From the NCBI GenBank assembly GCA_964016885.1, contig OZ024760.1, positions 14,508,001 to 14,572,000 of the forward strand: 64,000 bases of DNA, read 5' to 3'. Under the pieces are notes generated by a model that was given only the letters and a program-made list of their open reading frames with translations, had not been told where the DNA came from and did no database searches. The position numbers were made by a program, and so were the translations under genes. Of this stretch, positions 1-46,065 are shown piece by piece (position 1 is the first letter of the stretch; each line of letters opens with the position of its first letter). Source of the stretch: Eledone cirrhosa. Taxonomy: Eukaryota.

Positions 1-1529
1 TGGTCCTCAGCGTGATCTTCACTTTGGTAAGTAGCAGATGATTTTATTGATATTTAACTCTTTCATTACCGTATTTATAATGAAATACATTGTATTTGAA
101 TAAATCAAAAAAAAAAGGAAAAAAAAACCAGTCACATATCACATGTTAATGTGCAGTCTGAAACTGGCGGAGTTTAGAGTCACAAGAGATATATAAATTT
201 CTGTGATTCTGTCACAACACATAAAGGGAGAGTAGTTTGACTACCTCATACTCTCCCTCTCTCTTTAGGTCTGTGCGTATGTATGTGTGTGTACAAGTAA
301 AGAGAGAGGAGTAGTTTGACTACCTTATACTACTCCTCTCTCTTTACGTCTGCTGCCTGCGTGAATGTATGTGTGTGTAAAAGGAAGGAAGGAGGTGGTG
401 AAAAAATTAGCAAAATAGCAGCTGGCATTCCATTTGTTATGCTATGTATGTGTGTGTTTGTGGGAATGTATGTGTGAATGTATGTGTGAATGTATGGCAT
501 TTTTAATCTTGTACGCATTGTAGGGTTTTCAAATATTTAAAATTATTTAACCCTCTAGCATTTAAACCGGTCATATCCGGCCTGATTTCCCTCACATCTT
601 TGTGTTCAAACTGGCCATAACTGGCCACTCATACTGATGTTAAGGTATTGTTCTGAAAATAAATAACATCAAAATCTCATAGATTCGATAGTATGAGATA
701 ATGAGGTAAGATAAAGCCTTTACCACAAAAATACAATAGTATATATAGATTAATGTAAATGTTAAAGGGTTAAATTTATATTTCAATAATATGTTGTTTT
801 TTTTGTTTTTTTTTCCCCTTTGAAAATTCAGGTGGATGTAGGTGGCTTTATATATATATGGGGTCTATACATTGATACAACATCCTGTGTGATATTGACC
901 ATTGCAGTTGGCCTCGTAGTAGACTACTCTGTCCACATTGGCTTCACGTTCATGACATTGAAGGGCAAAAGTAATGGTCAGTATTCTCTTATTCTTTTAC
1001 TGATTTCAATCATTATTCAATGTGGCCATGCTGGTGCACTGCCTTAATTTAGTCGACCATATTGACTCCAGCAGTTATCTTTCAAAATAAATTTTGTTTT
1101 TGAATTCTGGTACATATTCTGTCAATCTTTTTCTATGGAACTACTAAGTTACAGGATATAAAAACAGACAGACATGAACATAAACACACACACACACACA
1201 CAAGTAAGTCTATCTGATCGATAATTAAGTCTCTCATCGAGTTACTCCCTTTATAATGGGTTTTAAACGTATTTTAAAATATTTGGGATCGTTAAATTTG
1301 CTAAGGTAAGATTCTTTTGTTATCTTTTGTTATTTTGGCAATTTAACATTCTTCATACGCATTGTATTGGTCTTCAAAATTTAGATTTAGATTTCCTATT
1401 AAACAATGCTTCAAGCAAGCTACAAAACTCTTATATAAGATTAAAAGCCATACAATGCATTGAAAATTAAAGGTGCCAAGACAGTGATGGAATTTTACCT
1501 TAACAAATTTAATTATCCCAAATATTTTT

Positions 1530-1567
<38 letters not shown>

Positions 1568-4500
1568 TTACAACAGTGACATAAAGAGGTACTCAAGTTT
1601 CGTTGGTTTCTGGGCCCCAATTCATTCAGCCTGTCATGAGAAAAATAAAATCAAAGATGGCCACTTAGGGTTGATTGTGCTTTCCTTATGGGAATATAAC
1701 ATGAGAGTTTACACAGGAGCAGGTAATTTAGAAAAAAGTTTAGAAAAAGTTTTTTTTTAATTAAAAAAACAAACCTTTTCTTTATACTAAACTCGTCCTA
1801 TGGACTGAGAGCTCTTACTCTTGGATATTTCCACTTATATATATATATATATACTCACCTACATACTCACATACACATATACACATGGACACATGCGTAT
1901 ATATACCTATCTATATACTCTCACACATACACACCTGTATATATGAAGAGCAAATAACAGTCAGCATCTTTCATGTTTTCATATTTTTGTTTTTGTTTTT
2001 GTTCATCCACTACTACTACTGCTGCTGCTGATACTACTACTGCTACAAGCAAAATCATCATTAACTCCATCACCATTATCGACATCATCACTACCATTAC
2101 TAACACCACCACCACCAGCATCAACAACATTAACATCACCAACAACATCACTACTACTACTACCACATTTAACATTACTATCACTACCATCAGCAACATC
2201 ACCGCCTCAAACACCACCACCATCACAAACATCCACACCAACCATAACAACATACCAACTTCTAACTTTATACTTTTTATTTCCAGATCGAATGATTATA
2301 ACTATGAAAGAAATAGGTCCCCCTGTATTCCACGGTGGATTTAGCACCCTCATTGCTGTGGTACCCTTATCCATGAGTTCTACATACCCCTTCAAGGCGT
2401 TTTTTAAGGTAATATAGTAAAGGCTTTACCTCACCTAATTATTTATTTTGATAACAATACCTTTACATCAGTATGAGCGGCCAGTTACAGTCAGTTTGAA
2501 CAGAAAGAGATGAGAGAATTCTGGCCAGTTACAGCCAGTTTAAATGCTAAAGGGTTAACGTTGGTATGAGTTTGCTAGTTACAGTTGGTTTGAACAGAAA
2601 CAGATGAGAGAATTCTGGCCGGATACAACTGGTTTAAGAGTCAACCTTACCACTTTGTAAGTTTCCATCAACTCATCTCACTCTTGTCTTTGTGTTTTAT
2701 ATATATTCCTTAGATATTCCTCCTGGTTGTTATTTTCGGTCTCTTCCATGGTATTGTGTTTCTGCCGGTGATATTAAGTATCTTCGCACCATCAGCTTAC
2801 TCCTCAGCAAAAGACATAACAATCAAAAAGACCAAGAAAAACCATAAAAGCAATGCACCAAAATTGTCTGGTATCACTCACACTGGCTTGGACCTTGACA
2901 ACGAGGTAAACCCTTCTTTTTGGGGGTGATTTTTTTCTATTTTTATTTCTATTTTCTCTTAATTTTATTGTAGGGGCAGTACATTGTGGAAAAACAGTCT
3001 TAATCTGTTGACTGCCGTGTATATTTTACACAGCTACAGTTGCAGTGCCATTTTTTTCCTTTTTTTCAGTATAATAACTATTCTTTGAAACAAACATTTA
3101 TTAACACATATCTGAATGATTGCCAAACGTCACATCAATGAATTAGTAACCCTATTTAGCGTTAAAGTTATGAACTGTTGAAAAAAAGTTCAAACATGTT
3201 AGGATGAGTTATTTCATCTGTGCACTGAAGAGGTTAAATATCTTAATCATTTTATTATTGTAAGTCCTTGAGCAAGACACTTTATTTCATGTTGCTCCTT
3301 CTTCCTAGATTTGCGACCGGTAGATAGTATTAGCAATTGGAAAGACTAATGGAAACATTGTTTCCTTGGTCCGATTTGATGAACTCTACCCCATCCGTTA
3401 AATGAATGAGGAGTGGGATCTTGTTGATCGACTGTTATTATAACTTTAGAAGAAAAAGAACAAACAAAACATGTATTCATGGTAAACAAAAACATAGGCA
3501 CACTTGCACTTAAGCTCCCACAGTTCTGGCTTAAGCGAGCCACAGTATGCTTTGCACAAGCTGAGCCAGAGTTCACCATCAAGAATATCATGTTGGGGTC
3601 ACCATTTATAGCTTTAGTTAAGTTATATGCAAAATAACACCAAATAATGATTTGTTATGGCATGACGCATATTTACAAATTTAACTTCTTCAGTGTTGTA
3701 AATAAGATAGCTTGTCCTAACATTCATGCCTTCTAGTACCACAGACAAGATAACTTATCCAACATGTTTGAACTCTTTTCCAACAGTACATAACTTCAAA
3801 GTTATGAAATTGCTTCCAAAAGTTCATAACTTCAAAGTTATGAAATTGTTTCCAAAATTTCATAATTTCAAAGCTAGATGGGGTTATTAGTTTATTGGTG
3901 TAACATTTGTCAATCATTCAAATATGTGTTGTTAATAAATGTTTGTTTAAAAAAATAGTCATTTTACTGGGGAAAAAAACCAGCACAGCAACTGTAGCTG
4001 TGTAAAATATACATGGCAGTCAACAGGTTAAGGAAGAGCGATCTGCCCCTAAAGTCCAGGTCTTGTTACCTGCCTCACCAGAAGTGCTTTCACTACCAAC
4101 CAGTTCAATAACAAGTCTGCAGTAAAGGCCCTTCTATAAACAGTTCATCTTTTACAAGCTCATGGAACAGAGGTTCTGAAAGCAGGTGCTATATTGAAAA
4201 GCGTGTGCTACAATGAGAAGATACAGGGGCGCTGGGGCCTGGGGGTTGAGGGTGGTGGGGGTGGTGTGGAGACGGTAGAGATGATATAATAGTATATTAA
4301 ATATCAAATGATACATATTATATATATAGTAAAATAAAAAATATATATTTATTTATTTATACATCGTATCTATATTATATTATTTATATATCATTTTTTT
4401 TTTGTTTCTACTTTAAGCACAAGGTCAGAAATTTGAAGGGGAGGGGGAAAGTCGATTAAATCAAACTCGGTGTATTACTGGTACTTTATTTTCCAGTAAT

Positions 4501-6108
4501 ACATTGGGTTGATTTAATCGACTTTCCCCTCCCCTTCAAATTTCTGATTTTGTGCCTAAAGTAGAAACAAAGAATATATAAATTAACGATTTTATTTATT
4601 ATATATCATTTACAATTTGCATGTAGGTAGGTCTCTCTGGAAATAGGGTTGGGGGAAGGGCGCTGAGAGTATTACGTGGTTGTGAGGGGTGGGGAGGGGT
4701 GGCCCAAAAAGTTTGAAAACCTCTCCTCTATCACATATCACAAGTCACTTAGATAAATGCACACAGGAATGTTAGATCTCAAATATATACTTTATAAGTA
4801 TATATAAATATAGGTCAGATTTGATTTAATTTCATGACGCACCTGAGATTCTCAATTCTTAAAAATATCAGTGATATGTACACCAGGCAATTAACAATGG
4901 CACACTAAATTGTCGTGAGATATTGAGAGATTATAGGTAATGCACCCAGAGATTGTCTGTAATTCACTAAAGCATAGCTTCTCAAATTTCTTGGGCCACC
5001 CACTGCTCCACCTCACAGCCACGTAATACCTTCAGCACACCCCAATCTTATTTTCAGACAGACCTGCCTACATGCAAATTGTAAATAATATATAATAAAT
5101 AAAATCATTAATTTATATATAATAAATAATATAATATATACTATGGATAAATAAATAATATATATTTCTTATTTTACTATATATATATAGTACGTATATA
5201 CAATAAATAAAATCCTCAATTTCATCATCATCTTCACCGTTTTACGTCTATTCTTCCACGTTAGCATGGGTTAGACGGGTTGTCCTGTTATGGACAATGT
5301 TAGGTCAGCTGACCTTGTCTTGCTCAGACGTGAACTGATGTTGGCTTGATTTCTACAGCTGGATGCCCTTCCTAACACCAACCTCATTTACAGTGAGTGC
5401 TGGGTGCTTTTTTGTCGTGACACCTCCACGACCACTTTACAGTGGGAGGGGATGGGGGCATATTGTCTATATCCTTCAGCTTCGGCTTGTTCCCATGGAA
5501 AGTTGGATCTTCTGTATTACTGCGTGACGCCAGAGGTCACGGTTCTGTCTCATCGCCTTTGAGAGGTGCAATTGGGCAAGGTCCGTGTTTTATCACCTCA
5601 TCCCAGATCTTCTTGGGTCTCCTCACTCCACGGCTTCTATTGACCTCTAGTGCTCTGCACCTTTTTATTGAGCTGTCATATATAATAAATAATATAATAT
5701 ATATTATGTATAAATAAATATTATATATTTTTTATTTTACTATATTTGATATTTAATATACTATTATATCATCTCTCCACCCCCCTTAGGTCCCAGTGAC
5801 TCCTGGACCTCCCACTTTGAGAACCTTTGCCTCTCTTTCATTCTCACTCTCCCTCCCTCTCTTATTCTTTCTCTCTCTCTCGCTCTCTCTCTCATTCTCT
5901 CATCTCTCTCTCTCACACATTCTCACAGTCTCTCTCTCTGCAGTTGGACATGGTTACACAGACCCCTAACGGAAGTACATACAACACTGACTGTAACACA
6001 GAATACTTACACAAGAGAGTTCCATCAACAGAAATCCGGCCATCGGAAATCAGCATCTTTACAATACAGAACGGAGCCAAACCAGTCAAAGATCAAGAAA
6101 GCAGATAG
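1..6108 (+). CDS. 3' part of a second, near-identical PTCHD3-like gene (copy B); exons 15(part)-19, 5' part outside the window
   Basis: join(<1-26,832-976,2287-2408,2714-2905,5944-6108); same exon lengths, splice sites and phases as copy A; no stops or frameshifts in the 650 visible coding nt. Confidence 0.9.
551..769. mobile_element. piggyBac-like MITE (TTAA-CCCTTTAGCAT...ATGCTAAAGGG-TTAA family)
   Basis: TTAA on both sides, CCC/GGG TIRs; related copies at ~9780-9993, 11858-12087, 19030-19250, 20825-21030, 23821-24025, 43738-43958, 45001-45207. Confidence 0.75.
832..976 (+). CDS. Copy B exon 16 (VDVGGFIYIWG...[12 protein letters not shown])
   Basis: ttcag acceptor, G|GTCAGT donor; mirror of 20622-20766. 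Confidence 0.92.
2287..2408 (+). CDS. Copy B exon 17 ([18 protein letters not shown]...AFFK)
   Basis: Mirror of 19308-19429, identical by eye. Confidence 0.92.
2714..2905 (+). CDS. Copy B exon 18 ([13 protein letters not shown]...LDLDNE)
   Basis: Mirror of 16644-16835 with 2 substitutions. Confidence 0.9.
2971..4051. mobile_element. Non-autonomous DNA transposon with long (~170 bp) degenerate TIRs starting TAGGGGCAG
   Basis: ~2990-3140 is the reverse complement of ~3900-4035; ends ctgccccta; no clear TSD. Confidence 0.6.
5944..6108 (+). CDS. Copy B terminal exon 19 (LDMVTQ...DQESR*)
   Basis: Mirror of 15001-15165, identical by eye. Confidence 0.72.
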   Translation: MDMVTQTPNGSTYNTDCNTEYLHKRVPSTEIRPSEISIFTIQNGAKPVKDQESR

Positions 6109-7212
6109 ATGTAACTGTGGTGGTAGTGGCGGTGATGGTGGTCGTGGCGGTGATGGTGGTGGTGGTGATGGTGGTGGTGGCGGCGGTGATGGTGACGGCG
6201 GTGGTGTCAGAAGTGGTGGCCGTGGCGGTGATGGTGGTGGTACTGGCAGTGTTGGTGGTGGCAGCGGCCAAAACACAGTCCATGTTGTAAGTGTGGTCGT
6301 GTACAAAACATGGTAAAAAGGCTCCCAGTCCACACTGTAAATGTGGTTGGTGTTAGGAAGGGCATCCAGCTGTAGAAAACCCGCCAGACAATCCTATATG
6401 AGCGAGACACGGTCACTCGATCAATCTTGCCTCAAGTAGGACAATTCCCATCTAACCCATGCTGTGGTCGAAGATAGATGCTAAATGATGATGATGATGA
6501 TATCAAATTAAACAACGATGTTAAAGACTCGCATTAATCACCTATAATTTAATGAGCTCAAGGAATAGATTCTGGGCTCTTTATAAGACAGTAAATCCAC
6601 TATGGTTGAACACATACCTCTTTGTGTATTTTTCTCTACATACTGTGTTATATATATATATATATAATATATATATTTATTAAAATAACAGATTAAAGTT
6701 TAAGCAAAGAATCGCTGCTTTCTCCACCTGTGTACATATTCTTCTATAGAATATGTATTTGGTATATATACAATATATACTGTGTTTCTTATACCATATA
6801 TGGCCCTTTCTCTCTACATATATATATATATCTTTTTCATTTGGTTATCATGGCTTTAGATAAAGTCTATTGAGCTTCCTTATTGAGAAACACAAAATTC
6901 TGAACATATCTGATATGTTTTGATTAATTATTTGTATAAATATACTCTTTTACCCTTTTACCTCCTCTAGCCACCCGGCTGAGGCCATGCTACCGCCCTT
7001 ACACTTTAATATATATAATTTATGTAATTTTTGTTTATATGTATGATGATGATGATGTGTACAAGTTTACAACCCACAAATCTTTATTCCAATGAGAAGA
7101 CTCTAGAATTATATGGAATTTAAATATTAGCATTTACTCTTGTATAAATACATTAACCACACACATGTGTTTGTACATATATAAGATATATAATATAAAT
7201 ATATATTATATG

Positions 7213-7258
<46 letters not shown>

Positions 7259-7834
7259 AAAAACTTGTTTCTGTGCAGGGTGTATTTGTTCACAAATACA
7301 ACAGCAATAGCTATAAGTACATATATGTAGGTCATCCATTGTATTTATTTTCTATATCCATCCTCCGAAATGCATAGTAAAACCTACTACAGCCAGTAGG
7401 CATCTCTAACAAAATACACCCCGTCCCACCACCCCCACCCCATCCACACCACCCCCTTCTATGTAAAGTTATGTTGGTGCCACACCATCCAGGCCGAAAC
7501 AAATGAGATCGTGTAGGTGTCACGACAAAAAAAAAACACAGTCCACGTAATGTGGTCGTGTAGGCAACACGGTAAAAACCTCCCAGACCCACACTGCTTC
7601 ATTGGAAATTTAAGACGCTGGTCTGAGACTTTTACTTCCCTCCGAAGAAGAGATATTATCTCGAAAATTAAGGACATTTAAATAAATTCAAGGTGAAAGA
7701 CGAATTCTCATCAATATCTCTCACTATTGCATTCTTTTTTCTATGTCCATATCTGCATTGTCTTGGCCTTATTACACATATTCTAACGTTTATACCTCAT
7801 TACACAATGCTTCAAGTGAACTATAACCTCCTCC

Positions 7835-7868
<34 letters not shown>

Positions 7869-8094
7869 GTGTATGTATATATATATATGTGTATGTATAT
7901 ATATGTATGTGTATATATATTTATAGATATGTATGTGTATGTGTGTATTTGTATATGTATATATGTGTGTATGTGTATATATATATATATATATGTGTGT
8001 ATATATATATATGTATGTGTATATATATATATATGTATGTGTATATATATATATGTATGTGTATATATATATATATGTATATATATATGTATGT

Positions 8095-8126
<32 letters not shown>

Positions 8127-8654
8127 CAGCCATTGTCCCTGTTGAACCCTTGCCAGCTGGAAAGTGATGTAAATTATATATATATATATATACGTGGGAA
8201 AGTAAGAAATAGGAGAATAGACCGTTAAAACATGTTTATTTAAAACAGCACCTACGTACGTTTCGACCAGTTGGGATTCTCAAGGGCATAAATAATCAAA
8301 AGTGTTCCTTACATTGCTCGGAAAAAGTTTTTGGGGTTAAATCCACGTCAAGGTTCATTGCTCGCAAAAATAGCTTGTTTTGATTTTGCAGCAGGTCAAG
8401 GGAGGTAACTCTGGCCGGTGTTAGGGCAGTCTTTAACGGACAAATTTTTAAAGCGATGTGTTTACTTATCGCTGTTTCAGCTCTGCTGTTGATGAGCTAG
8501 TGGGGTCCAGTTATGATGTGGTAGAGCTCCATGAGGCAAATATCGCATTTCCTCTTGTAGTTGTACAGTGCAGCCCTGCCGACAATATCCCAGTGCGTGG
8601 AGAAGCTGATGATTAAGTCCTTTAGTGATACGATATATATATATATATATACAT

Positions 8655-8697
<43 letters not shown>

Positions 8698-8708
8698 CAT
8701 ATATACAT

Positions 8709-8745
<37 letters not shown>

Positions 8746-9004
8746 CATACACACATATATATCCTGTTGTACCTATTTCCCTATGGTGGCCTCAATATAC
8801 ATTGGCCCTTTATTAGCATACACTTATTAATATATGACTCATTGTATTACAGATGGCAATATTTGGTTTCTAGCTTAGCTTTACCACATCTATGTTTGTA
8901 GATTCTATATATGTATGTGTATATCTGTATGTGCATGTCATTGCTGTCTGGTTAAGGAGTTCGCTTTTCAATCACGTGGTTCTGGGATCAGTCTTCCTCT
9001 ATAG

Positions 9005-10114
9005 CAGAGGTTCTTAGACCTTTTGGGCCACCACCCACCTCATGGCCACGTAATACCCCCGACCCTATTTCCAGAGAAACCTTCTTCTAATGACGTTAAA
9101 CTCCGCCAGTTGCAGATTGCACATCAACATGTGATATCTCTCTCCACAAAGTTTGATCACCAGCAGCAGAGTTCAAAGAGCAAAGATCAAGTCCAGTTCA
9201 AAAGTTGACATTGTCAAGCCATCATTTTGTCTGCCGGCCTCTGCTTCTCTTACTAGCCAACCTTCCTTCCAGGCATAACCTACTCACACCACGAGTGGAT
9301 CTTTTTATATGGTCGTATAGTTTGAGTACTCTTGACTTGACAATTGATGTAATTGGTCTAAGTTTGGTAATGTTGAGCAGCTCACTGATACAGATATGGT
9401 CGCTGAGCCAGTTGCTAGTCATAAGTCTCATGATGTGGTTCTCCAGAGAGACTTGCCTACATGCAAATCGTAAATAATATACAAGTAAAATTCCGTTATA
9501 ACGAATATTATTATAACAAATTTTTCAGTATAACAAATTTTTTTTCAAACCCCAGCAACAGACTCGATGTGTTTCGGTTGATCTCGCTATAAAGAATTTT
9601 TTGTTACAACAAATCTCTTTTTATACCCTGTGAATTTCGTTATAACGGATTTTTACTGTATAATAAATTAAATTGTTAATTTGTATATAATAAATAATAT
9701 AACATATACTATATATAAATAAATATTATATATTTTTTATTTTACTATATTTATATATAATATGTATCGTGATATTTAACCCTTTAGCATTTAAACCAGA
9801 TATATCCGGCCAGAATTCTCTCACCTCTTTCAAACTAGCTGTAACCAGCCACTCATACTGAAGTTAAGGTATTGTTCTCAAAATAATAATATTAAAATCT
9901 CATAGATTCGATATTATGCCAGATATTATGTAAGATAAAGCTTTTACCATGAAAATAAAATAAAAAATATAGAGTAATGTAAATATTAAAGGGTTAATAT
10001 ACTATCGTATCATCTCTACCTCCCTCTTTGACCCCAGTACTCCCTGGGCCTTTTCAACGACCCCCCAATCCCCCCGTCAGAGTGGGGCGGTAGCACCCAC
10101 TTTGAGAACCTCTG
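9005..10114. mobile_element. hAT (Charlie-like) non-autonomous element with nested RTE tail, pogo-like MITE (~9482-9658) and piggyBac-like MITE
   Basis: TIR CAGAGGTTCT...AGAACCTCTG; 8-bp TSD ctctatag/ctttatag; related copies at ~4168-4722 and ~4973-5829. Confidence 0.8.
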
Positions 10115-10849
10115 CTTTATAGCCTTGAGTTATGGAAAGGAGTTTAGAACATTTACAGCCTTTTCACCACCCAATCCATTTTTGACAGAGTGTAGTGTCT
10201 GTGTCACACATGGACAGAAATGCTGTGCAATCATTATACTATAGATTGAATGTGCTCATGTTACAAGCCTAGCCCAATATGATTATGTATAGCATGGAAA
10301 TTTTCAGTGTAAAGTACATTTGTAGCCACACACTAACCTAGTTCCTTTCTTAAGACATTAAAAAAATATTTATTTTTCATTTTTCTCATATGTCACATAC
10401 TTCATGAAGATATTTTTTTATGTCTTTGAACCATAATCTTTTATATATTATATCATCATCATCATCATCGTTTAATGTCTATCTTCCATGTTACCATGGG
10501 TTAGACGAGAATTGTCTCACTTGAGGCAAGATTCGTCAGGTAACTGTGTCTCGCTCGTATAGGACTATCTGGCAGGTTTTCTACAGCTGGATGCCCTTCC
10601 TAACACCAACCACATTTACAGTGTGGACTGGGAGCTTTTTACCGTGTTACCTACATGACCACATTACAGCGTGGACTGTGTTTATTTGTCGTGACACCTA
10701 CACGACCTCATTATTTTGGACTGGATGTTGTGGTACCAACTTTATAGAAAAAGGGTGGTTTGGTGGGCCTGGGAGGATGAAGTAGGAGTAGTGGGTTGGG
10801 GTGTATATTTGGTTAAGAGGTGTCTACTGACTGTAGGTTTCAGTTTGTA

Positions 10850-11370
10850 CATCGCCAAGGCGGGTCTTCTGTATTACTGCGTGGCACCAAAGATCTCGGT
10901 CCAATGACAGTGTCTTAGAGAGGTGCAAGTGTGTAAGGTCGGAATTTATCAAATCGTCCCAGGTTTTTCTGGGTCTACCTACTCCGTAACTTCCATCAAT
11001 TTTGATCGCCCTTCACTTTTTTATACAGCTGTCGTCTTTCATACACATCATGTGACCATACCAATGTAATCTTCTCTCAAGTAAACAGCATCTGATCCCT
11101 CTTATTCCTAATTTCTCACTTTGTTCATTTATGTTTTGCCGTTTACCTATATTACTATTACACATCCAACGGAGCATGCATGCTTCATTCCTTTCCAGTC
11201 TGCGCAGGTTCTCTGCACACAATGCCCATGTCTCACTGCCATGTAAAATTGCTGTTCTTATACAGACATCATACAATCTGCCTTTCATTTTTAGAGAGAA
11301 AACTTTTGTGGCCAACAGCAGTATAAACTCTCTGAACTTTTTCCATCCCATTTTGACTCTGGCTACTGTA
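10850..11370 (-). mobile_element. 5'-truncated RTE-clade LINE fragment
   Basis: ORF GWKKFRE...GRLYDVCIRTAILHGSETW...RRLHWYGHM; same family as 17010-18360. Confidence 0.85.
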
Positions 11371-13099
11371 CATTACATTGGAAGAGGTGGTGTGGATGGG
11401 GTGGGGGTAGTTGGACGGGGGTGTATTTTTGTTAGAGGTGCCTAATATTTATATACTTATATATATATATACACAAAGGAACTCATAAATTTTGGCCTTC
11501 TACGACCACATTAATGAAAGGCTGACCCCAAATACTGAAGCTATGTCTCATTTCAACTTTGGCTCCATTTTCTGTTTGTTTATTGTGAATATTCAAGTCC
11601 TGCTTCAATCTTCCATGTGACTTTGATAACTTTGATAAGTTTCGGCCTGTATTGGCCCAGGCCATGTCTAACTTAATAGCACCACCTGACTTGCAGGTGT
11701 TTTTTTTACAAATATGGCATTGAAACTTGTCATCCTAAATGAAACTCCAAAATTCCATGTATGTCTTACATTGCATGGTGATACTGATACTATCACAGAC
11801 CAGCATAATTAGGCATACTTTAGTGCATAAGGCACACTTAAAGATGCCTTCATTTAACCCTTTAGCTATATCCGGCCAGAATTCCATCACCTCTTTCTGT
11901 TCAAACCAGCCAGAATTCCATCACCTCTTTCTGTTCAAACCGGCCATAACTGTCTGCTCATACTGATGTTAAGGTATTGTTCTCAAAATAAATAATATCA
12001 AAATCTCATAGATTCGATATTATGTGAGATAAAATGTTTACTGTGAAAATACAATAGTAAATATAGAGTAATGTAAATGTTAAAGGGTTAAAAACAAATT
12101 TACAAATATCAAACAAGGCAATATTAAAATATATATATATATTATTTATTTTAATAAATTATATCTAATTGTATGTTTTTCGTTTTTCCTTTGTCTTTCT
12201 CATGCTCCATTTTGTGAATATGTTTTGTTACCATGGACACACTGACACACATGGATCTGTACATGATGGGGATGATAGTGATGATGATGATGATGATAAA
12301 CCTTGATTTGGGTAATAAATATAGATTCCTGCACATGCTCCTACACATACACCCATTTCACATACATACCTGAACACACATGAATATAGATATTAGTTTA
12401 ACAATGTTAATAATAACTGTTTCCACTTTTGGCACAGGGCCAGCAATAACCCAGTGCATTACTGGTACTTTATTTTATCAACCCTGAAAGGATGAAAGGC
12501 AAAGTTATCCTCGGCAGGATTTGAACTCAGAATGGCAAAGGCCGTAACTCTATGCTGCAAAGCATGGCATCCGACCCTCTACTGATACTGCCAATCCACC
12601 ACCTAACAATGATAATATTGGGTCATTAAGTATGAAATTTGTACAGATTTGTACAAATTTCGTATTTGATGACCCAATAATAACAAAGGCAAGTTATTTT
12701 ACATACTTCTTTCATTGTTTTACAACCGTTTCGGTGGGTTGATCATATTGATATATTGACTGATCTATAGCAATTAGAGAACTGTATACTATCAGACATA
12801 ATATATGGGTTCGATCATACCTTCGAAAGGTAGAGCACATTGTGTGCGTGTATATCTTCATCATCGTTTAACGTCTATCTTCCACGCTAGCATGGGTTTA
12901 GACGGAGCATGGGTTTATATATATATATATATATAATAGTTTTTTTAACAATGATAACAATGATACCTTATTCATTGTTTTATGATCATTTTGGAGGGTT
13001 GATTATATCGATGTATTGACTGATCTATAGCAGTTATAGAATTGTATACTATCAGACATAATATATTGGTTCGATCATACCATCTTCTTTGGAAACATA

Positions 13100-14770
13100 A
13101 ATATGTAAATAGGTGTGAGTATGAGAGACTGATGAATAGGGAGAATATGTGGGAGGAAAATAGCCTGCCCCAGGTGAACTCTATAGAGGGACCGGCGATG
13201 GAAGGCAGCAGCAGTGTAGTAAGTAAGATGATTAAGGATATGAAAACAGACAAAGCAGTGGGGCTATCAGGTATAGGAGCTGGAATGCTGAAAACTAAGA
13301 TGGTAGGACACACCATAACCATCCATATTGTAAACCAAGTTATACAAAATGGTCCATACCCAATGACTGACGTAGCAGCATCATCATCAACTGTTACAAG
13401 AGTAAGGGTGATGTCCTAGAGAGGGGGAACTACCGAGGCATAAAACTGATGGACCAAGTCATGAAAGATACAGAAAGTAAGATTGTACAACTGATTAGGG
13501 ATCAAATTAACCTTGATGAGATGCAGTTCACATTTGTGCCAAGAAAAAGTACCACAGATGCCCTCTTCCTTGTGAGGCAACTGCAGGAGAAGTACCTAGT
13601 TAAATGCAAACTCCTCTACTTGGCATCTGTTGACCTAGAGAAAGCTTTTGACAGGGTCCCCCATTCTGTAATCTGGTAGGCACTTAGGAAACTAGGAGTA
13701 GAAGAGATGCTTGTGAGGGTGGTACAAGCCATGTACAGAGGTGCTGTCAGAAAGGTTAAAACTAATAATGACTATAGTGAGGAGTTTAGTGTGCAAGTTG
13801 GGGTCCACCAATGTTCTGTCCTTAGCCCTCTCCTATTTATTATCATCCTCCAGGCTATAGTAGAAGAGTTTAAAGTAAGATATACTTGGTAACTCCTGTA
13901 TGCTGATGACTTATCTCTCATAGCTGAATCTATGACAGAACTAGAGAAAAAATTCCTGACCTGGAAGCATAACCTAGAATCAAAATGTCTTAAAGTCAAC
14001 CTGACAAAGACCAAAGTTCTCGTAAGAAGTAAGGAAAACAAGGCCCTGATCTGTAGAAATTCCATCCTCTGTCCCAAATGCAAACTATGGTTGCACAAGA
14101 GATGTAGTGGGACCCAAAGTAAGTTAACTAAGAACTTATGTGGTTATTGCACAGGAGCAGTAAGTAACAAGTGCTCACAGGAAACAAGTGCTATCAAATT
14201 CTTGGAAGGTTCTGTAGAAGCAGTTGACAGCTTCTGTTACATGGGTTACCAAATTGGTAGTGGAGGTGGGTGTTCGGAAAGCTCAATAGCCAGCGTGAGG
14301 ATGGGTTGGAGAAAGTTCAGGGTGCTACAACTGCTGCTAGCAACAAAAGGTATTTCCCTCAAAATGAAGGGCAGATTGCATTTATATGAGTTGTCATGTT
14401 ACATGGTAGTGAGACCTGGGCTCTGTGAGCAGAGGACCAGCAAAGATTGGAAAGGAATGGCCTGCTTTGTTGGATACATGAATGGCAAAGCATAAATGAA
14501 TTGAGAGAGAAACTAGGCATAAGAGGGATCACATGCAGTGTGCAGGAGAGGAGATTGCATTGGTATGGACATGTGATGCATATGAAGGATGACAGCTGTA
14601 TAAAAAGGTGTATGGCGGTCAAAATTGATGGTAGCTATGGAGTAGGAAGACCTAGAAAGACTTGGGATGAGACGATAAAGGCTTACAGAATTGCACCTCC
14701 CAAAGGGGATGACACGAGATCTCTAGCATTATGCGGTAATACAGAAGACCCACGTTCCCCTATGCACAGG
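13100..14770 (+). mobile_element. Degenerate RTE-clade LINE (RT region, frameshifted)
   Basis: [61 protein letters not shown]. Confidence 0.92.
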
Positions 14771-15000
14771 TTGAAGCATACATTCAGTATGCACCACTTT
14801 CCCCAACACTGTGACAACCAGCACCAGTACCACCACCACCAACATAATGACTACCACTAACAACAACACTGTCACCACTACTGCCTTTAAAACCATCATT
14901 ACCATCACCAGCATCACTTCTGCCACCATCATCACCACCACCACCACCATCACCATCACCGCCACGACCACCATCACCGCCACTACCACCACAGTTACAT

Positions 15001-15165
15001 CTATCTGCTTTCTTGATCTTTGACTGGTTTGGCTCCGTTCTGTATTGTAAAGATGCTGATTTCCGATGGCCGGATTTCTGTTGATGGAACTCTCTTGTGT
15101 AAGTATTCTGTGTTACAGTCAGTGTTGTATGTACTTCCGTTAGGGGTCTGTGTAACCATGTCCAA
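15001..15165 (-). CDS. Copy A exon 19, terminal ([11 protein letters not shown]...KDQESR*)
   Basis: (CT)n tract + ctgcag acceptor, phase 0, TAG at 15001-15003; identical in both copies. Confidence 0.72.
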   Translation of the reverse strand: MDMVTQTPNGSTYNTDCNTEYLHKRVPSTEIRPSEISIFTIQNGAKPVKDQESR

Positions 15166-18100
15166 CTGCAGAGAGAGAGACTGAGAGATGTGAGAATGTG
15201 TGTGAGAGAGAGAGAGAGAGAGAAAGATGTGAGAATGTGTGTGAGAAAGAGAGAGAGTTACTGAGAGATGAGAGAATGTGTGTGAGAGAGAGGGAGGGAG
15301 AGAGAGAGAGAGAATGAAAGAGAGGCAAAGGTTCTCAAAGTGGGAGGTCCAGGAGTCACTGGGACATAAGGGGGGTGGAGAGATGATATAATAGTATGTT
15401 AAATATCAAATATAGTAAAATAAAAAATATATAATATTTATTTATACATAATATATATTATATTATTTATTATATATGACAGCTCAATAAAAAGGTGCAG
15501 AGCACTAGAGGTCAATAGAAGCCGTGGAGTGAGGAGACCCAAGAAGATCTGGGATGAGGTGATAAAACACGGACCTTGCCCAATTGCACCTCTCAAAGGC
15601 GATGAGACAGAACCGTGACCTCTGGCGTCACGCAGTAATACAGAAGATCCAACTTCCCACGGGAACAAGCCGAAGCTGAAGGATATAGACAATATGCCCC
15701 CATCCCCTCCCACTGTAAAGTGGACGTGTAGGCACCACGGAAAAAAAGCACCCAGCACTCACTGTAAATGAGGTTGGTGTTAGGAAGGGCATCCAGCTGT
15801 AGAAATCAAGCCAGCATCAGTTCACATCTGAGCAAGACAAGGTCAGCTGATCTAACATTGCCCACAACAGGACAACCCGTCTAACCCATGCTAGCGTGGA
15901 AGAATCGATGTAAAACGGTGATGCTGATGAAATTGAGGATTTTATTTATTGATGGTGAACTGTGCCTCATCTTGTGCAAAGCACACTTTGTCTCGCTTAA
16001 GCCAGTGTGACTATGTTTTTGGTTACCTTGAATACACGTTTTGTTTGTTCTTTTTCTTCTAAAGCTATAATAACAGTCGATCAACAAGATCCCAGACCTC
16101 ATTCACTTAACGGATGGGGTAGAGTTCGTCAAATCGGATCAAGGAAACAATGTTTCCATTAGTCTTTCCAATTGCTAATACTATCTACTGGTCGCAAATC
16201 TAGGAAGAAGGAGCAACATGAAATAAAGTGTCTTGCTCAAGGACTTACAATAATAAAATGATTAAGATATTTAACCTCATCAGTGCACAGATGAAATAAC
16301 TCATCCTAACATGTTTGAACTTTTTTTCAACAGTTCATAACTTTAACGCTAAATGGGGTTACTAATTCATTGATGTGACGTTTGGCAATCATTCAGATAT
16401 GTGTTAATAAATGTTTGTTTCAAAGAATAGTTATTATACTGAAAAAAATGAAAAAAATGGCACTGCAACTGTAGCTGTGTAAAATATACACGGCAGTCAA
16501 CACTGCAACTGTAGCTGTGTAAAATATACACGGCAGTCAACAGATTAAGACTGTTTTTCCACAATGTACTGCCCCTTCAATAAAATTGAGAGGAAATAAA
16601 AATAAAAATAGAAAAAAAATCACCCCCAAAAAGAAGGGATTACCTCGTTGTCAAGGTCCAAGCCAGTGTTAGTGATACCAGACAATTTTGGTGTATTGCT
16701 TTTATGGTTTTTCTTGGTCTTTTTGATTGTTATGTCTTTTGCTGAGGAGTAAGCTGATGGTGCGAAGATACTTAATATCACCGGCAGAAACACAATACCA
16801 TGGAAGAGACCGAAAATAACAACCAGGAGGAATATCTAAGGAATATATATAAAACACAAAGACAAGGGTGAGATGAGTTGATGGAAACTTACAAAGTGGT
16901 AAGGTTGTCTCTTAAACCAGTTGTATCCGGCCAGAATTCTCTCACCTGTTTCTGTTCAAACCAATTCTAACTAGCCACGCATATATATATATATAAGATG
17001 AAATATATATATAGATGAAATGCAGTTTGGGTTTGTGGCAGGTAAAAGTACCACAGACGCTCTTTTCCTTGTACGACAACTACAAGAGAAGTACCTAGCT
17101 AAAAGTAAACCCCTCTACTTAGCTTTTGTAGACCTGGAGAAAGCTTTTGACAGAGTCCCCCGCTCCATTATCTGGTGGGCTCTTAGAAAACTAGGTGTAT
17201 ATGAATGTCTTGTGAGAGGTATACAAGCTATGTATAATGAAAGAGTCAGTAAGGTTAGAATTAACAATGAATATTGTGAAGAATTTAGCGTAAAAGTTGG
17301 CGTTCATCAAGACTCTGTCCTTAGCCCCTTCTTATTTATTATTGCCCTTCAGGCTATAACAGAGGAGTTCAAGACCGACTGCCCATAGGAACTCCTAATG
17401 ATCTAATGCTCATACCTGAATCAATGGCTGAACTAGATAAGAAATTCGAAACATGGAAGCATGGCCTAGAATCAAAAGGCCTTAAAGTTAACTTGTCTAA
17501 GACTAAAGTTCTAGTTTGTAGAAAGGAAAATAGGGCGCAGGTGCCCTCAGGGAAATGGCCATGCTCAGTGTGTAGGAAAGGAGTAGGCAGAAATTCCATT
17601 TTATGTCCCAAATGCAAAGTATGGGTACATAAAAGATGTAGTGGGATCACAGGTAAACTATCTAAGAACGTAGACTTTATATGTGGCCAATGCTCAGGTG
17701 CAATAAGTAGCAAGTGTCCAAAGGATACTAGCTCCTTCTATTGCCCAGATGGTTCTATAGAAATAATAGACACTTTCCGTTACCTGGGTGACGAAATCAG
17801 CAGTGGTGGAGGGTGTTCTGAAAGTACAGTAGCCAGAGTCAGAACGGGATGGAAAAAGTTCAGAGAGCTTATACCGCTGTTGGCCACAAAAGGTTTCTCT
17901 CTAAAAATGAAAGGCAGATTGTATGATGCCTGTATAAGAACAGCAATGCTACATGGCAGTGAGACATGGGCATTACGTGCAGAGGACCTGCATAGACTGG
18001 AAAGGAACGAAGCATGCATGCTCCGTGGATGTGTAATAGTAATATACGTGAACAGCAAAGCATAAATGAACTAAGTGAGAAATTAGGAATAAGAGGGATC

Positions 18101-20120
18101 AGATGCTGTTTACTTGAGAGAAGACTACGTAGGTATGGTCACGTGATGCGCATGAAAGACGACAGCTGCATAAAAAAGTGCAGGGTGATCAAAATTGATG
18201 GTAGTTACGGAGTAGGTAGACCCAGAAAAACCTGGGATGATCTGATAAATTCCGAGCTTACACACTTACATCTCTCTAAGACAATGTCTCTGGACCGAGA
18301 TCTTTGGCACTATGCAGTAATACAGAAGACCCGCCTTGCCTATGTACAAAGCGAAACCTACAGTCAGTAGGCACCTCTTAACCAAATATACACTCCAATC
18401 CACTACTCCTACCCTATCCTCCCACTCCTACCAACAGCACGAGATAATGAGATCGAGATCGTGTAGGTGTCACGACAAAAAACACACACAGTCCACGCTG
18501 TAATGTGGCCGTGTAGGTAACACGGTAAAAAGTTCCCAGTTCCACACTGTAAATGTGGTTGGTGTTAGGAAGGGCATCCAGCCGTAGAAAACCTGCCAGA
18601 TAGTCCTATATGAGCGAGACACGGTCACCCGACCAGCCTTGCCTCAAGTGGAACAACTCCCGTCTAACCCATGCTAGCGTGGAAAATGGACGTTAAATGA
18701 AGATGATGATGATGATAAGTATATGTATATATATTTATATGTATGTATATATATATATATAAATGAAATAAATGAATATATGTGTATATACATATATATA
18801 TTCTATTATAGCTGTAAGTTTCATGCTTAAGAAAATTTATCAAAGCATTTTGTTAAGTTTCATAAACCTATCTATAGCACAGATTGCCATCATCCCAGTA
18901 TAGGCCACCATCTCAATTGGAAAATTATCCCTTAACCCTTTGGCATTTAAACTGGCTGTAACTGGCCAGAATTCTCTCATCTCTTTCTGTTCAAACCAAC
19001 TGTAACTAGCCCATTCATACCAACGTTAACCCTTTAGCATTTAAACTGGCTGTAACAGGCCAGAATTCTCTCACCTCTTTCTGTTCAAACTGGCTGTAAC
19101 TGGCCGCTCATACTGATGTAAAAGTATTGTTCTCGAAATAAACAACATCAAAATCTCATAGATTCAATATTATGTGAGATAATTATGTAAGATAAAGCCT
19201 TTACCACAAAAATACAATAGTATATATAAAGTAATGTAAATGCTAAAGGGTTAAGGTATTGTTATCAAAATAAATAATTAGGTGAGGTAAAGCCTTTACT
19301 ATATTACCTTAAAAAACGCCTTGAAGGGGTATGTAGAACTCATGGATAAGGGTACCACAGCAATGAGGGTGCTAAATCCACCGTGGAATACAGGGGGACC
19401 TATTTCTTTCATAGTTATAATCATTCGATCTGGAAATAAAAAGTATAAAGTTAGAAGTTGGTATGTTGTTATGGTTGGTGTGGATGTTTTTGATGGTGGT
19501 GGTGTTTGAGGTGGTGATGTTGCTGATGGTAGTGATAGTAATGTTAAATGTGGTAGTAGTAGTAGTGATGTTGTTGGTGATGTTAATGTTGTTGATGCTG
19601 GTGGTGGTGGTGTTAGTAATGGTAGTCGATAATGATGATGGAGTTAATGATGATTTTGCTTGTAGCAGTAGTAGTATCAGCAGCAGCAGTAGTAGTAGTG
19701 GATGAACAAAAACAAAAACAAAAATATGAAAACATGAAAGATGCTGACTGTTATTTGCTCTTCATATATACAGGTGTGTATGTGTGAGAGTATATAGATA
19801 GGTATATATACACATGTGTCCATGTGTATATGTGTATGTGAGTATGTAGGTGAGTATATATATATATATAAGTGGAAATATCCAAGAGTAAGAGCTCTCA
19901 GTCCATAGGACGAGTTTAGTATAAAGAAAAGGTGTTTTTTTTAATTAAAAAAACAACCTTTTTCTAAATTACCTGCTCCTGTGTAAACTCTCATGTTATA
20001 TTCCCATAAGGAAAGCACAATCAACCCTAAACGGCTATCTTTAGTTTTTTTTTCTCATGACAGGCTGAATGAATTGGGGCCCAGAAACCAACAAAACTTG
20101 AGTACCTCTTTATGTTGTAA

Positions 20121-20164
<44 letters not shown>

Positions 20165-23100
20165 AGTTTTGTAGCTTGCTTGAAGCATTGTTTAATAGGA
20201 AATCTAAATCTAAATTTTGAAGACCAATACAATGCGTATGAAGAATGTTAAATTGCCAAAATAACAAAAGATAACAAAAGAATCTTACCTTAGCAAATTT
20301 AACGATCCCAAATATTTTAAAATACGTTTAAAACCCATTATAAAGGGAGTAACTCGATGAGAGACTTAATTATCGATCAGATAGACTTACTTGTGTGTGT
20401 GTGTGTGTGTGTGTTTATGTTCATGTCTGTCTGTTTTTATATCCTGTAACTTAGTAGTTCCATAGAAAAAGATTGACAGAATATGTACCAGAATTCAAAA
20501 ACAAAATTTATTTTGAAAGATAACTGCTGGAGTCAATATGGTCGACTAAATTAAGGCAGTGCACCAGCATGGCCACATTGAATAATGATTGAAATCAGTA
20601 AAAGAATAAGAGAATACTGACCATTGCTTTTGCCCTTCAATGTCATGAACGTGAAGCCAATGTGGACAGAGTAGTCTACTACGAGGCCAACTGCAATGGT
20701 CATTATCACACAGGATGTTGTATCAATGTATAGACCCCATATATTTATAAAGCCACTTACATCCACCTGAATTTTCAAAGGGGAAAAAAAAACAAAAAAA
20801 AACATTATTAAAATACAAATTTAACCCTTTAACATTTACATTAATCTATATATACTATTGTATTTTTGTGGTAAAGGCTTTATCTTACCTCATTATCTCA
20901 TACTATCGAATCTATGAGATTTTGATGTTATTTATTTTCAGAACAATACCTTAACATCAGTATGAGTGGCCAGTTATGGCCAGTTTGAACACAAAGATGT
21001 GAGGGAATTCTGGCCGGATATGACCGGTTTAAATAATTTTAAATATTTGAAAACCCTACAATGCATACAAGATTAAAAGTGCCATACATTCACACATACA
21101 TTCACACATACATTCCCACAAACACACACATACATTCACACATACATAGCATAACAAATGGAATGCCAGCTGCTATTTTGCTAATTTTTTCACCACCTAC
21201 TTCCTTCCTTTTACACACACATGCATTCACGCAGGCAGCAGACGTAAAGAGAGAGGAGTAGTATAAGGTAGTCAAACTACTCCTCTCTCTTTACTTGTAC
21301 ACACACATACATACGCACAGGCAGTAGACCTAAAGAGAGAGGGAGAGTATGAGGTAATCAAACTACTCTCCCTTTATGTGTTGTGACAGAATCACAGAAA
21401 TTTATATATCTCTTGTGACGCTAAACTCCGCCAGTTTCAGACTGCACATTAACATGTGATATCTCTCTCCACAAAGTCCGATCACCAGCAGCAGAGTTCA
21501 AAGAGCAAAGGACAAGTCCAGTCCATAGATTGACATTATCAAGCCATCGTTTTGGCTGCCGGCCTCTGCTTCTCTTACTAGCCAACCTTCCCTCCAGGCA
21601 TAACCTACTCACACCACGAGTTGATCTTTTTATATGGTCGTATAGTTTGAAATTTATATATAGATGCTTCCAAAATCTTCAACATCATCATCGTTTAACG
21701 CTAGCATGGGTTAGACGGGAATTGTCCCATTTGAAGCAAGATTGGTCAGGTGACCGTGTCTTGTTCGTATAGGACTGTCTGGCAGGTTTTCCACGGCAGG
21801 ATGCCCTTCCAACCACATTTATAGTGTGGACTGGAACCTCTTTACCGTGTTACCTACACGACCACATTACAGCATGGACTATTTTTTTTTTCATTTATTC
21901 AAATACAATGTATTTCATTATAAATACGGTAATGAAAGAGTTAAATATCAATAAAATCATCTGCTACTTACCAAAGTGAAGATCACGCTGAGGACCACTA
22001 TAAGTGATGTCATGCAATTCATTATCATTATTGTAGTAATCACAAATACTGATACAAATGCCAGACACAAGTTCTTTTTGATTTCCCATTCCAAAATCTG
22101 GAAAAAATCTCAAAAATATAACCAAATGTCAATAAAAAAACCTGCAGTAAAAATAAACATTTCCAGATTTATATATGGGCAAAATGTGTGACCACATAGG
22201 GCAGTGACTCCCAACGTGGGGTGCACACCCCACAGGGGGGCAATTTGAATATTTAACCCATTAGCATTTACATTATTCTATATTTACTATTGTATTTTCA
22301 TGGCAGGTTAGTGATTGCCAAAGTGGGGTGTACACCCCACAGGGGGCAGACTTTATACCATATTCTTGCCGTGGAAGCCAACAGAAAGAAGAGAACATCA
22401 TTGTAGGAGGGGTGTCTCCGACATTGACACTCTACTGAGTGAAACTTGAGCATCCAACACACAAGAGTTGAGGACACTTGATGGACATAGTGGACGGGGG
22501 GAAGTGTGTGAATTCTGTTGGACATTCTTGAGGACAACCAAATTGAAATTGAATACATTCTTGAAGGGGTTCAATACTTGGGAGAGAGAGAGAGAGAGGA
22601 CATGTCCCAAGTAGATCCTATAGAGTTACCAGCTATTAGAATTGACAGTAGTACAATTGAAAGTATTGTGCATACCTCCACCAAAGTATAGTTCTCAAAA
22701 TAAATAACATCAAAATCTCATAAATTCGATATTATGTGAGATAAAGCATTTACCGTGAAAACATTGAGTGTGTTTTATTATATATTTCTGGCAATATTAT
22801 TGTTTCTATTTTTGGCACAAGGCCAGCAATTATCCCAGTGTATTACTGGTACTTTATTTTATCGACCTCGTAAGAATGAAAGGCAAAGTTAACCTCGGCG
22901 GGATTTGAACTCAGACCGTAAAGGGACGTAACTACGCTGGAAAGCATGTCTGACCCTCCACCAATACTGCCAATTCACCGCCCTTTAATATTTCTGGCAA
23001 TATTATAACAATATGACCTTCCCCAAATATAACAATATTTTTTATTGTTGTTTTTTCTTATCTAGCCTAGTGGCCAGCTAAGCTTGCCCAAATGCCCATA

Positions 23101-26100: not shown

Positions 26101-26499
26101 GTTGCAGGATGTTTTATAATTAATTGGAGAGTTATTTGTGGTGTTGCCATCTATGCATTTTCCTGATTTGCAGTTGCAATTCAGCATGTAATTTTCATAG
26201 CAATTGCAACTACTTACAAAAGACGATGTGTTCAAGGTGACTTTGCAGTTTTTGATGTCTAGAGGTGAAGGAAACATTGATGATTCACAGAGTGTTGGTG
26301 GGCAAATGTAGGACTTCTTCACCAAGCTCAAGCAGGTATATTTTATTTGTCGTTCGATGAACCAATGGTAAGGTTTGGCCTTAGGTGATAACCAAAACCT
26401 ATCCATTAATTCCTCAAAGTAGTTGAAGGTACTGTTGAATTCTGATACAGAAGAAAAATATTATTTTTATCAACAACCTCCACAAATAAACAAATATAA

Positions 26500-26564
<65 letters not shown>

Positions 26565-26886
26565 TTGTCCCCCAGTAGTCGCAGGGGTTATGTCCCTAGA
26601 GCACCTGTGAAGAGTGAAAAACTGCGAATATTGGACATGGTCCATAAAATGCCTATAAATGTCAAAATATAACGTAAAATATAATAAAAAAAAAGAGGGA
26701 CCATCTTATGCAAAGGGGTATCCAATAGGCCAGCAAATATGGTATATTTTTGTCAATAATTTAGCATTAAAAAAACCATTAAAAGAATCGAGGAATATAT
26801 TTATGATTCCATGAATATGCGGTGGTTTCCACGAACACAATTATTAGTTAGGTTCTAAAGAAAATTCCGCGAATGCCGGAGGTACA

Positions 26887-26958
<72 letters not shown>

Positions 26959-26979
26959 TGTTATACTTTGGGAGGTACA

Positions 26980-27033
<54 letters not shown>

Positions 27034-27068
27034 TGTTATACTTTGGGAGGGTCATGTTGCCAGAAACG

Positions 27069-27105
<37 letters not shown>

Positions 27106-27228
27106 AATGAAAGTATAGAAATTATTGTGAGCGTGAAGCCAACAGTATTTCATAATATATAAGTGACTATAACGTCAAAATGGAAAAATAGTTAACGTAA
27201 GATGTGGGAAAATAATTCAAACTCAATT

Positions 27229-27268
<40 letters not shown>

Positions 27269-29624: not shown

Positions 29625-29682
<58 letters not shown>

Positions 29683-36515: not shown

Positions 36516-36552
<37 letters not shown>

Positions 36553-37431: not shown

Positions 37432-37471
<40 letters not shown>

Positions 37472-38062: not shown

Positions 38063-38138
<76 letters not shown>

Positions 38139-38205
38139 CTAGGGAGTGTAACTTGGAGTTACTGCAGGTTCACCCATGAGTAACCAATCGTCCTTGTTAT
38201 CTTTT

Positions 38206-38243
<38 letters not shown>

Positions 38244-38460: not shown

Positions 38461-38553
<93 letters not shown>

Positions 38554-41466: not shown

Positions 41467-41498
<32 letters not shown>

Positions 41499-46018: not shown

Positions 46019-46065
<47 letters not shown>

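What the first reader, a model, noticed from the sequence alone, without database searches (positions are those of the whole stretch)
1..21997. Tail-to-tail inverted pair of near-identical Patched-related transporter genes
Seen: exons 15-19 and their introns occur on + (1-6170) and on - (14940-21997), with stop codons facing each other ~8.9 kb apart. Both copies keep intact splice sites and ORFs. Inference: this is a palindromic gene pair that probably extends far left of the window as a complete second gene. It points to a lineage-specific expansion of an SSD/RND sterol or lipid transporter. Convergent read-through would produce kilobases of dsRNA.
Basis: partly seen in the sequence, partly recalled or inferred. 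Interest (0 to 1): 0.75.

Follow-up and report, generated by a model that had tools for sequence, protein, structure and literature searches.

The report
Young back-to-back octopod lipid-transporter gene pair
An octopod genome assembly holds two complete, 96%-identical copies of a Patched-related membrane-transporter gene facing each other tail to tail; they are probably a real young duplication whose outer, cargo-facing loops differ faster than the introns, which would mean the copies are starting to take on different jobs.

Summary
Observation confirmed and extended. The inverted repeat runs 33 kb left of the window: arms of about 39.5 and 37.5 kb around an 8.7-kb spacer, with no gap in 464 kb and different single genes on either side. 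Each arm holds a complete 19-exon Patched-related (PTR/PTCHD) gene with an open frame (1086 and 1095 aa, 96% identical) and both GxxxD transport motifs. Spliced contigs of one public run carry copy B letters, and break exactly at the edges of an A/B divergent patch, so copy A is probably transcribed too. Amino-acid-changing differences are absent from the sterol-sensing core (0 of 472 sites) but reach 3.6% and 2.2% in the two luminal domains, above the 1.0-1.3% of non-coding DNA. This fits selection for diverging cargo or ligand contacts, possibly against gene conversion. A haplotype mis-join is unlikely from the layout but was not excluded: read depth had no single-copy yardstick. The 'expansion' is only one gene becoming two. 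The dsRNA idea has no support. A good example of a known process, not a new kind of system.

The parts
1..6179 (+). In-window end of arm B. The whole arm is window -33,307..6,179 (G000:C21:14,474,693-14,514,179); gene B starts at -28,683 and encodes 1095 aa in 19 exons. In-window exons: 15 (ends at 26), 16 (832-976), 17 (2287-2408), 18 (2714-2905), 19 (5944-6108, stop)
14930..52391 (-). Arm A (37.5 kb), inverted copy of arm B
15001..49030 (-). Gene A, 19 exons, 1086 aa: 49030-48702, 46791-46524, 45784-45714, 44800-44684, 42387-42285, 38816-38734, 35640-35520, 34469-34346, 33586-33414, 31661-31413, 31251-31077, 29356-29225, 26441-26029, 23341-23189, 22097-21972, 20766-20622, 19429-19308, 16835-16644, 15165-15001
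   Evidence: all introns GT-AG, one stop at the end; joins 2-3-4 and 14-15-16 seen in spliced contigs
6180..14929 (.). Spacer, 8.7 kb, not duplicated; old repeat fragments and microsatellites; longest match at 95% or more to anything else in the 464 kb is 78 bp
6110..6270 (+). Inner junction of arm B: homology fades inside a (GGT)n low-complexity tract about 70 bp after the stop; its partner is 14890-15000 on the minus strand
52258..52470 (-). Outer junction of arm A: homology ends inside a high-copy short interspersed repeat present at both outer ends
46524..46791 (-). Exon 2 (TM1 and start of luminal domain 1): 12 A/B differences in 268 nt, 9 amino-acid changing
31413..35640 (-). Exons 7-10, sterol-sensing domain (TM2-6) with GIGIDD in TM4; no amino-acid difference between the copies over residues 337-543
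26029..26441 (-). Exon 13: about 104-residue insert with 12 cysteines in luminal domain 2, present in the cephalopod relatives and absent from the scallop one; its last 70 nt hold the densest A/B patch (11 substitutions and a 15-nt in-frame indel)
20622..20766 (-). Exon 16 with the TM10 motif GLVVD, intact in both copies

Best explanation
The assembly holds two complete, intact copies of a Patched-related (PTR/PTCHD) twelve-helix transporter gene in inverted orientation, most likely a real, young local duplication whose copies are probably diverging in the luminal loops that meet cargo or ligand. Shown: the layout, two open 19-exon frames, intact GxxxD motifs, spliced B-type transcripts, an unchanged sterol-sensing core and excess differences in the luminal domains. 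Inferred: (1) the duplication arose by replication template switching, using a short interspersed repeat at the outer ends and a (GGT)n tract at the inner ends; (2) both proteins pump a sterol or other hydrophobic cargo, by family; (3) the luminal excess reflects selection for different cargo or partner specificity; (4) arm-to-arm gene conversion may be keeping introns and the core alike while the selected patches escape it.
For: No N in 464 kb; arms end sharply; flanks share only dispersed repeats of at most 1.6 kb and carry different genes; a flanking ITFG2 exon is single-copy in the assembly. Spacer has no long near-identical repeat at which a false join could form. About 12 kb is only in A and 14 kb only in B against 25 kb aligned, far above the 0.17-6.69% hemizygosity reported between mollusc haplotypes, 1.74% in O. 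sinensis (10.1101/2020.09.15.298695, section 13 read). DNA runs carry both types about equally: 11 A and 14 B of 25 covered cluster-by-run cells. Run X4 has spliced contigs, B-type at 16 of 16 sites in exons 2-4; two of its contigs stop at 26098 and 23340, the bases next to the first and last A/B differences of the exon-13 patch, as expected if both forms are present. Non-synonymous divergence: luminal domain 1 17/475, domain 2 15/670, core 0/472, against 80/8237 in non-repetitive non-coding DNA (p 1.6e-5, 0.005) or 237/18288 in all non-coding DNA (p 2.7e-4, 0.055). Non-coding divergence is over-dispersed and higher in short blocks between indels, 118/6426 against 107/11078.
Against: Depth could not tell paralogues from alleles: per-type depth is about 7-8 and shared depth about 15, while 31 contig depths from other loci have a median of 10. 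No third haplotype letter appeared: 27 of 31 listed differences are known A/B sites and 4 lie in high-copy repeats. No A-type spliced contig was listed. Synonymous divergence in luminal domain 1 is as high as non-synonymous (5/119), so dN/dS is about 1, not above it; gene-wide pN 1.63%, pS 1.60%. Domain limits were drawn after the differences were seen and p-values are uncorrected; without the exon-13 patch the luminal excess is p 0.005 or 0.057. The luminal domains are also the fast parts between species (95/198 and 158/280 differ from O. vulgaris). Faster change in B holds with one outgroup only (14 to 3, p 0.013; 8 to 9, 6 to 2 and 16 to 8 with others). Higher divergence near indels can also come from misalignment or indel-linked mutation. 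Cargo is unknown.
Confidence: 0.62

Rival explanations
1. Real duplication, but the differences are neutral or relaxed: two redundant copies (a dosage pair), with luminal patches coming from clustered repair events and uneven conversion rather than selection for new function.
For: dN/dS about 1 gene-wide and in luminal domain 1; the exon-13 patch is one tight cluster beside an indel and could be a single event; luminal domains are weakly constrained between species; rate asymmetry is not robust.
Against: Luminal non-synonymous divergence is above, not equal to, the non-coding rate, and is spread over exons 2, 3, 5, 6, 7, 12, 13 and 14; no stop or frameshift in either copy although the introns differ at 35 large indels.
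Confidence: 0.24
2. False duplication: A and B are two diverged alleles of one gene that the assembler placed in tandem.
For: About 1% non-coding divergence is in the allelic range; A and B appear equally in one sample and no third haplotype was seen; in curated long-read assemblies most remaining false duplications lie on the same scaffold (PMC9516828, passages read); depth was inconclusive.
Against: No gap between or near the copies, whereas gaps are a listed mark of false duplications (PMC9516828); the sequence beyond both ends of A is unrelated to that beyond both ends of B, which alleles would not give, and a simple heterozygous inversion does not produce this order; about a third of each arm is copy-specific.
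Confidence: 0.11
3. The pair acts through RNA: read-through from one gene into the opposite arm makes long hairpin RNA that silences or edits the transcripts.
For: Geometry allows it: convergent genes with about 99% identical aligned blocks.
Against: The two mRNAs are the same sense, so pairing needs about 8.7 kb of read-through; AATAAA/ATTAAA hexamers lie at 6507-7681 after B and at 13841 after A; spliced transcript is present; no Rfam match in 1-24000.
Confidence: 0.03

Closest known systems
Octopus vulgaris / O. sinensis 'patched domain-containing protein 3' / 'patched homolog 1'-annotated protein (P0001-P0003; CAI9739427.1, XP_036368564.1, XP_029650033.1)
   Same: 57-58% identity over the full length, same cysteine-rich luminal insert, same clade in the tree, no closer match elsewhere in this genome
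   Different: One cluster in those species in the protein collection, two genes here; the names are automatic and do not establish orthology to vertebrate PTCHD3 or PTCH1
Argonauta hians pair P0004 / P0006
   Different: 77% identical, so much older; arrangement not seen
C. elegans PTR/PTCHD proteins (PTR-4, PTR-18) and PTCH1/NPC1 RND transporters
   Same: Sterol-sensing domain, GxxxDD in TM4 and GxxxD/E in TM10 (PMC8104386, passages), PTCH1/NPC1 fold for the orthologue model
   Different: Cephalopod cysteine-rich insert with no Pfam match; cargo and direction unknown, as for most PTRs (10.1101/2021.03.30.437696, passages)
Peaks of divergence under gene conversion (human red/green opsins; Teshima and Innan 2008 as reviewed in PMC3924837, passages read)
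   Same: Neighbouring duplicates with exons more divergent than introns at putative functional sites
   Different: Here inverted, and no sister-species sequence to prove conversion or date the pair
Sex-chromosome palindromes with arm-to-arm conversion (PMC8981503, start of abstract only)
   Same: Inverted arms of tens of kb around a spacer, carrying a whole gene
   Different: Arms are far from the over-99% whole-arm identity: about a third is copy-specific; sex linkage of this chromosome is unknown

Membership tests
PTR/PTCHD (Patched-related) RND transporters | Sterol-sensing / Patched domain | tested here: met
   PF02460 and PF12349 on exons 9 and 10
PTR/PTCHD (Patched-related) RND transporters | GxxxDD in TM4 and GxxxD/E in TM10 | tested here: met
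   GIGIDD at 406/410 and GLVVD at 906/915 in A/B; motif definition from PMC8104386
PTR/PTCHD (Patched-related) RND transporters | Twelve membrane helices in two halves with two luminal domains | tested here: met
   AlphaFold model of the O. vulgaris orthologue P0001, not of A or B (pLDDT 76.5), matches PTCH1/NPC1 structures at E 1e-26 to 1e-33; A and B align to it end to end
PTR/PTCHD (Patched-related) RND transporters | Transport of a hydrophobic cargo | not testable with these tools
   needs an efflux or binding assay
Vertebrate PTCHD3 orthologues | Groups with vertebrate PTCHD3 in a tree | tested here: inconclusive
   In a quick 18-row tree the cephalopod clade joins a scallop and arthropod group apart from P0033/P0035; midpoint root, long branches, careful search unfinished
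Patched (Hedgehog receptor) | Hedgehog binding and PTCH1-level similarity | tested here: inconclusive
   Best PDB sequence hit is PTCH1 but structure-level identity is only about 16%, the same as NPC1; binding not tested
Conversion-maintained palindromes | Arm identity above 99% over the whole arm | tested here: not met
   about 99% in aligned columns, but 35 heterologies of 100 bp or more and only 24.8 kb aligned
Conversion-maintained palindromes | [quoted passage not shown] | not testable with these tools
   no related genome held
False heterotype duplication | Gap between the copies | tested here: not met
   no N in 464 kb
False heterotype duplication | Half read depth and single-copy k-mers | tested here: inconclusive
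   no single-copy yardstick

The most novel reading that the evidence does not exclude
A lipid-transporter or receptor gene caught in the act of neofunctionalisation inside an inverted repeat: the arms are older than their 1% divergence, conversion keeps introns and the transport core alike, and selection holds opsin-like peaks at the luminal entrance and at a cephalopod-specific cysteine-rich module. The same gene duplicated independently in Argonauta, so octopods would have repeatedly split one Patched-related protein into two specificities, giving a ready-made residue map of cargo or ligand choice in a family whose cargo is mostly unknown.
Probability: 0.28. Interest if true: 0.66.

Novelty: new member of a known kind. 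Interest (0 to 1): 0.42.

Why it matters
What PTR/PTCHD proteins carry is largely open. A natural pair with the same sterol-sensing core and about 30 differences in the luminal domains points to the residues that may set cargo or partner choice and can be compared directly. It is also a compact case for studying how duplicates escape gene conversion outside model species. Without the selection signal it is an ordinary recent segmental duplication.

Tried and rejected
RAD-seq runs X5-X7 (three other samples) gave no usable cover of unique exon sequence in 20170-26490, so fixed heterozygosity across individuals was not tested. No listed holder was on record as RNA; X4 is read as RNA only because its contigs join exons. 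Depth calibration from other-locus contigs fell between the two predictions. A short exon 13 (donor at 26218) was rejected by the orthologue and by a contig running to 26098; a first exon-6 candidate at 37188-37078 broke the frame. Fresh transposon insertion as the source of the big indels: in 17 of 24 segments a repeat match crosses a junction (10 of 24 with three or more hits), and none of the segments inspected in 11 regions had terminal inverted repeats, so many look like deletions. Fold-back read chimera rejected: arms differ by 35 large indels. Z-linkage: no mention of the gene or its neighbours in the text or the one supplement file each of PMC10925132 and PMC13122204; left open. The atlas look-up of the cysteine-rich insert returned nothing usable. 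A beta-flower/Gp5 Pfam hit in the right flank is a 24-bp minisatellite. Earlier findings: none near, none bearing on this. Paper searches for this gene in octopods found nothing relevant by title or abstract start; the library lacks most subscription papers.

Full report
Observation. The window's first 6.2 kb is an inverted copy of 14,930-21,997, in collinear blocks of 91-99% identity. The window is G000:C21:14,508,001-14,572,000 in a 3.0-Gb assembly. I fetched 200 kb on each side. The inverted match continues to window -33,307 on the left and 52,391 on the right, and there is no N in the 464 kb. Arms are about 39.5 kb (B, plus strand) and 37.5 kb (A, minus strand) around an 8.7-kb spacer.

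Genes. Both arms hold 19 exons with AG/GT ends and one stop at the end: 1086 aa (A) and 1095 aa (B), 96% identical. Exons 9 and 10 match Pfam Patched and Sterol-sensing. The closest database protein is from Octopus vulgaris and O. sinensis at 57-58%, so the animal is an octopod some distance from them. Both copies keep GIGIDD in TM4 and GLVVD in TM10, the motifs that PTR-18, Patched and Dispatched need (PMC8104386, passages read). A model of the O. vulgaris orthologue has the PTCH1/NPC1 fold. Exon 13 encodes a roughly 104-residue insert with 12 cysteines, shared with the other cephalopod proteins, absent from the scallop relative, low-confidence in the model and without a Pfam match. Genome searches found only these two close copies plus three distant Patched-domain loci (lower bounds). 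Argonauta hians has its own older pair, 77% identical and sister to each other.

Real or mis-joined. The layout favours a real duplication. There is no gap. The two outer flanks share only dispersed repeats of at most 1.6 kb and carry different genes: ITFG2 on the left; mRNA capping enzyme, a TTL-family gene and Wntless on the right (78 of 297 listed ORFs scanned). The ITFG2 exon is single-copy. The spacer has no match of 95% or more longer than 78 bp in the region. Alleles would share flanks; these copies share neither. About 11.9 kb is only in A and 13.6 kb only in B against 24.8 kb aligned, well above the 0.17-6.69% hemizygosity reported for eight molluscs (10.1101/2020.09.15.298695, section 13 read). 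Gaps and half depth are the listed marks of false duplication (PMC9516828, passages). The first is absent; the second could not be judged. Three DNA runs of one sample carry A-type and B-type letters about equally (11 A, 14 B of 25 covered cluster-by-run cells, my count). Of 31 listed differences, 27 are known A/B sites and 4 lie in high-copy repeats, so no third haplotype showed; popped contigs would mostly hide one. Shared contigs have depth about 15-17 and mixed ones 7-14, while 31 depths from other loci have a median of 10, between the two predictions. RAD runs of three other samples did not cover unique sequence. I put a mis-join at about one in ten.

Expression. Run X4, not on record as RNA, has contigs joining exons 2-3-4 and 14-15-16 at the predicted boundaries. 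They carry B letters at 16 of 16 sites in exons 2-4 and show B's expected counts in exons 13-16. Two contigs stop at 26,098 and 23,340, the bases next to the first and last A/B differences of the exon-13 patch (26,097 and 23,341). A graph branch there is what both forms would give. So B is shown to be spliced and A is inferred.

Divergence. Non-coding columns differ at 80/8237 (0.97%, non-repetitive) or 237/18288 (1.30%, all). Coding sequence has about 41.5 non-synonymous and 11.5 synonymous changes plus two in-frame indels; pN 1.63%, pS 1.60%. By region: sterol-sensing core 0/472 non-synonymous; luminal domain 1 17/475; luminal domain 2 15/670; outside the luminal domains 9/1394. The luminal excess over non-coding DNA is p 2.8e-6 or 1.9e-4, uncorrected, with limits drawn after seeing the data; without the exon-13 patch it is p 0.005 or 0.057. 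Synonymous sites in domain 1 are equally raised (5/119). This is the pattern described for duplicates whose selected exons escape gene conversion (PMC3924837, passages). In line with conversion, non-coding divergence is over-dispersed and higher in short blocks and near indels, but misalignment or indel-linked mutation would do the same. B has more changes against O. vulgaris (14 to 3, p 0.013) but not against other outgroups.

Origin. Homology ends in a high-copy short repeat at both outer ends and in a (GGT)n tract about 70 bp past the stop at both inner ends. Template switching at such repeats is my inference from general knowledge. Only one copy can have kept the ancestral 3' UTR; A runs straight into old retroelement sequence, a weak hint that B holds the old position. 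Many large indels look like deletions rather than new insertions.

dsRNA. Both mRNAs are the same sense. Pairing needs read-through across the spacer past polyadenylation-type hexamers. Nothing here supports it and the spacer was not tested with RNA.

Verdict. A probably real, young, inverted whole-gene duplication of a PTR/PTCHD transporter, with both copies intact and a fair but unproven signal of divergence in the luminal domains. The process is known; I found no paper on this gene in octopods. Interest 0.42.

Noticed in passing
window 26029-26441 (-), exon 13: About 104-residue insert with 12 cysteines in luminal domain 2, in all cephalopod relatives aligned and absent from the scallop protein; no Pfam match, low model confidence; may be an undescribed disulphide-rich module.
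   Followed up: partly
   Followed up: partly
both arms, e.g. window 16945-18943, 24529-25624, 3471-5200: 35 heterologies of 100 bp or more (about 25 kb) against only 1% substitutions; many look like deletions with short filler. Either a very high deletion rate or arms older than their substitutions suggest.
   Followed up: partly
window 47614-48634 and -28,281..-27,587: A 48-bp minisatellite in intron 1 shared by both arms with different copy numbers (about 21 in A, about 14 in B).
   Followed up: no
window 8193-8632: Internally deleted copy of a high-copy dispersed element in the spacer; best genomic relatives 96-97% identical.
   Followed up: partly
L034:4715-7429 (-): Open 905-aa frame with RVT_1 and zf-RVT domains, a possibly young non-LTR retroelement.
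   Followed up: no
L008:7818-8168; L030:8327-8908; L031:1504-1950; L033:1397-1837; L039-L040: Neighbouring genes ITFG2, mRNA capping enzyme, TTL family and Wntless, usable as synteny anchors and single-copy depth controls.
   Followed up: partly
window 54362-56336 (-): Decayed retroelement with reverse-transcriptase-like frames just outside arm A, 87-89% identical to copies 170-210 kb away.
   Followed up: no
window -54,781..-54,053 and -35,265..-34,529: A 730-bp inverted pair, 96% identical, just outside the left arm.
   Followed up: no
G000:C2:77,043,115-77,044,920: A distant Patched-family match lying in one 871-aa open frame, apparently intron-poor.
   Followed up: no
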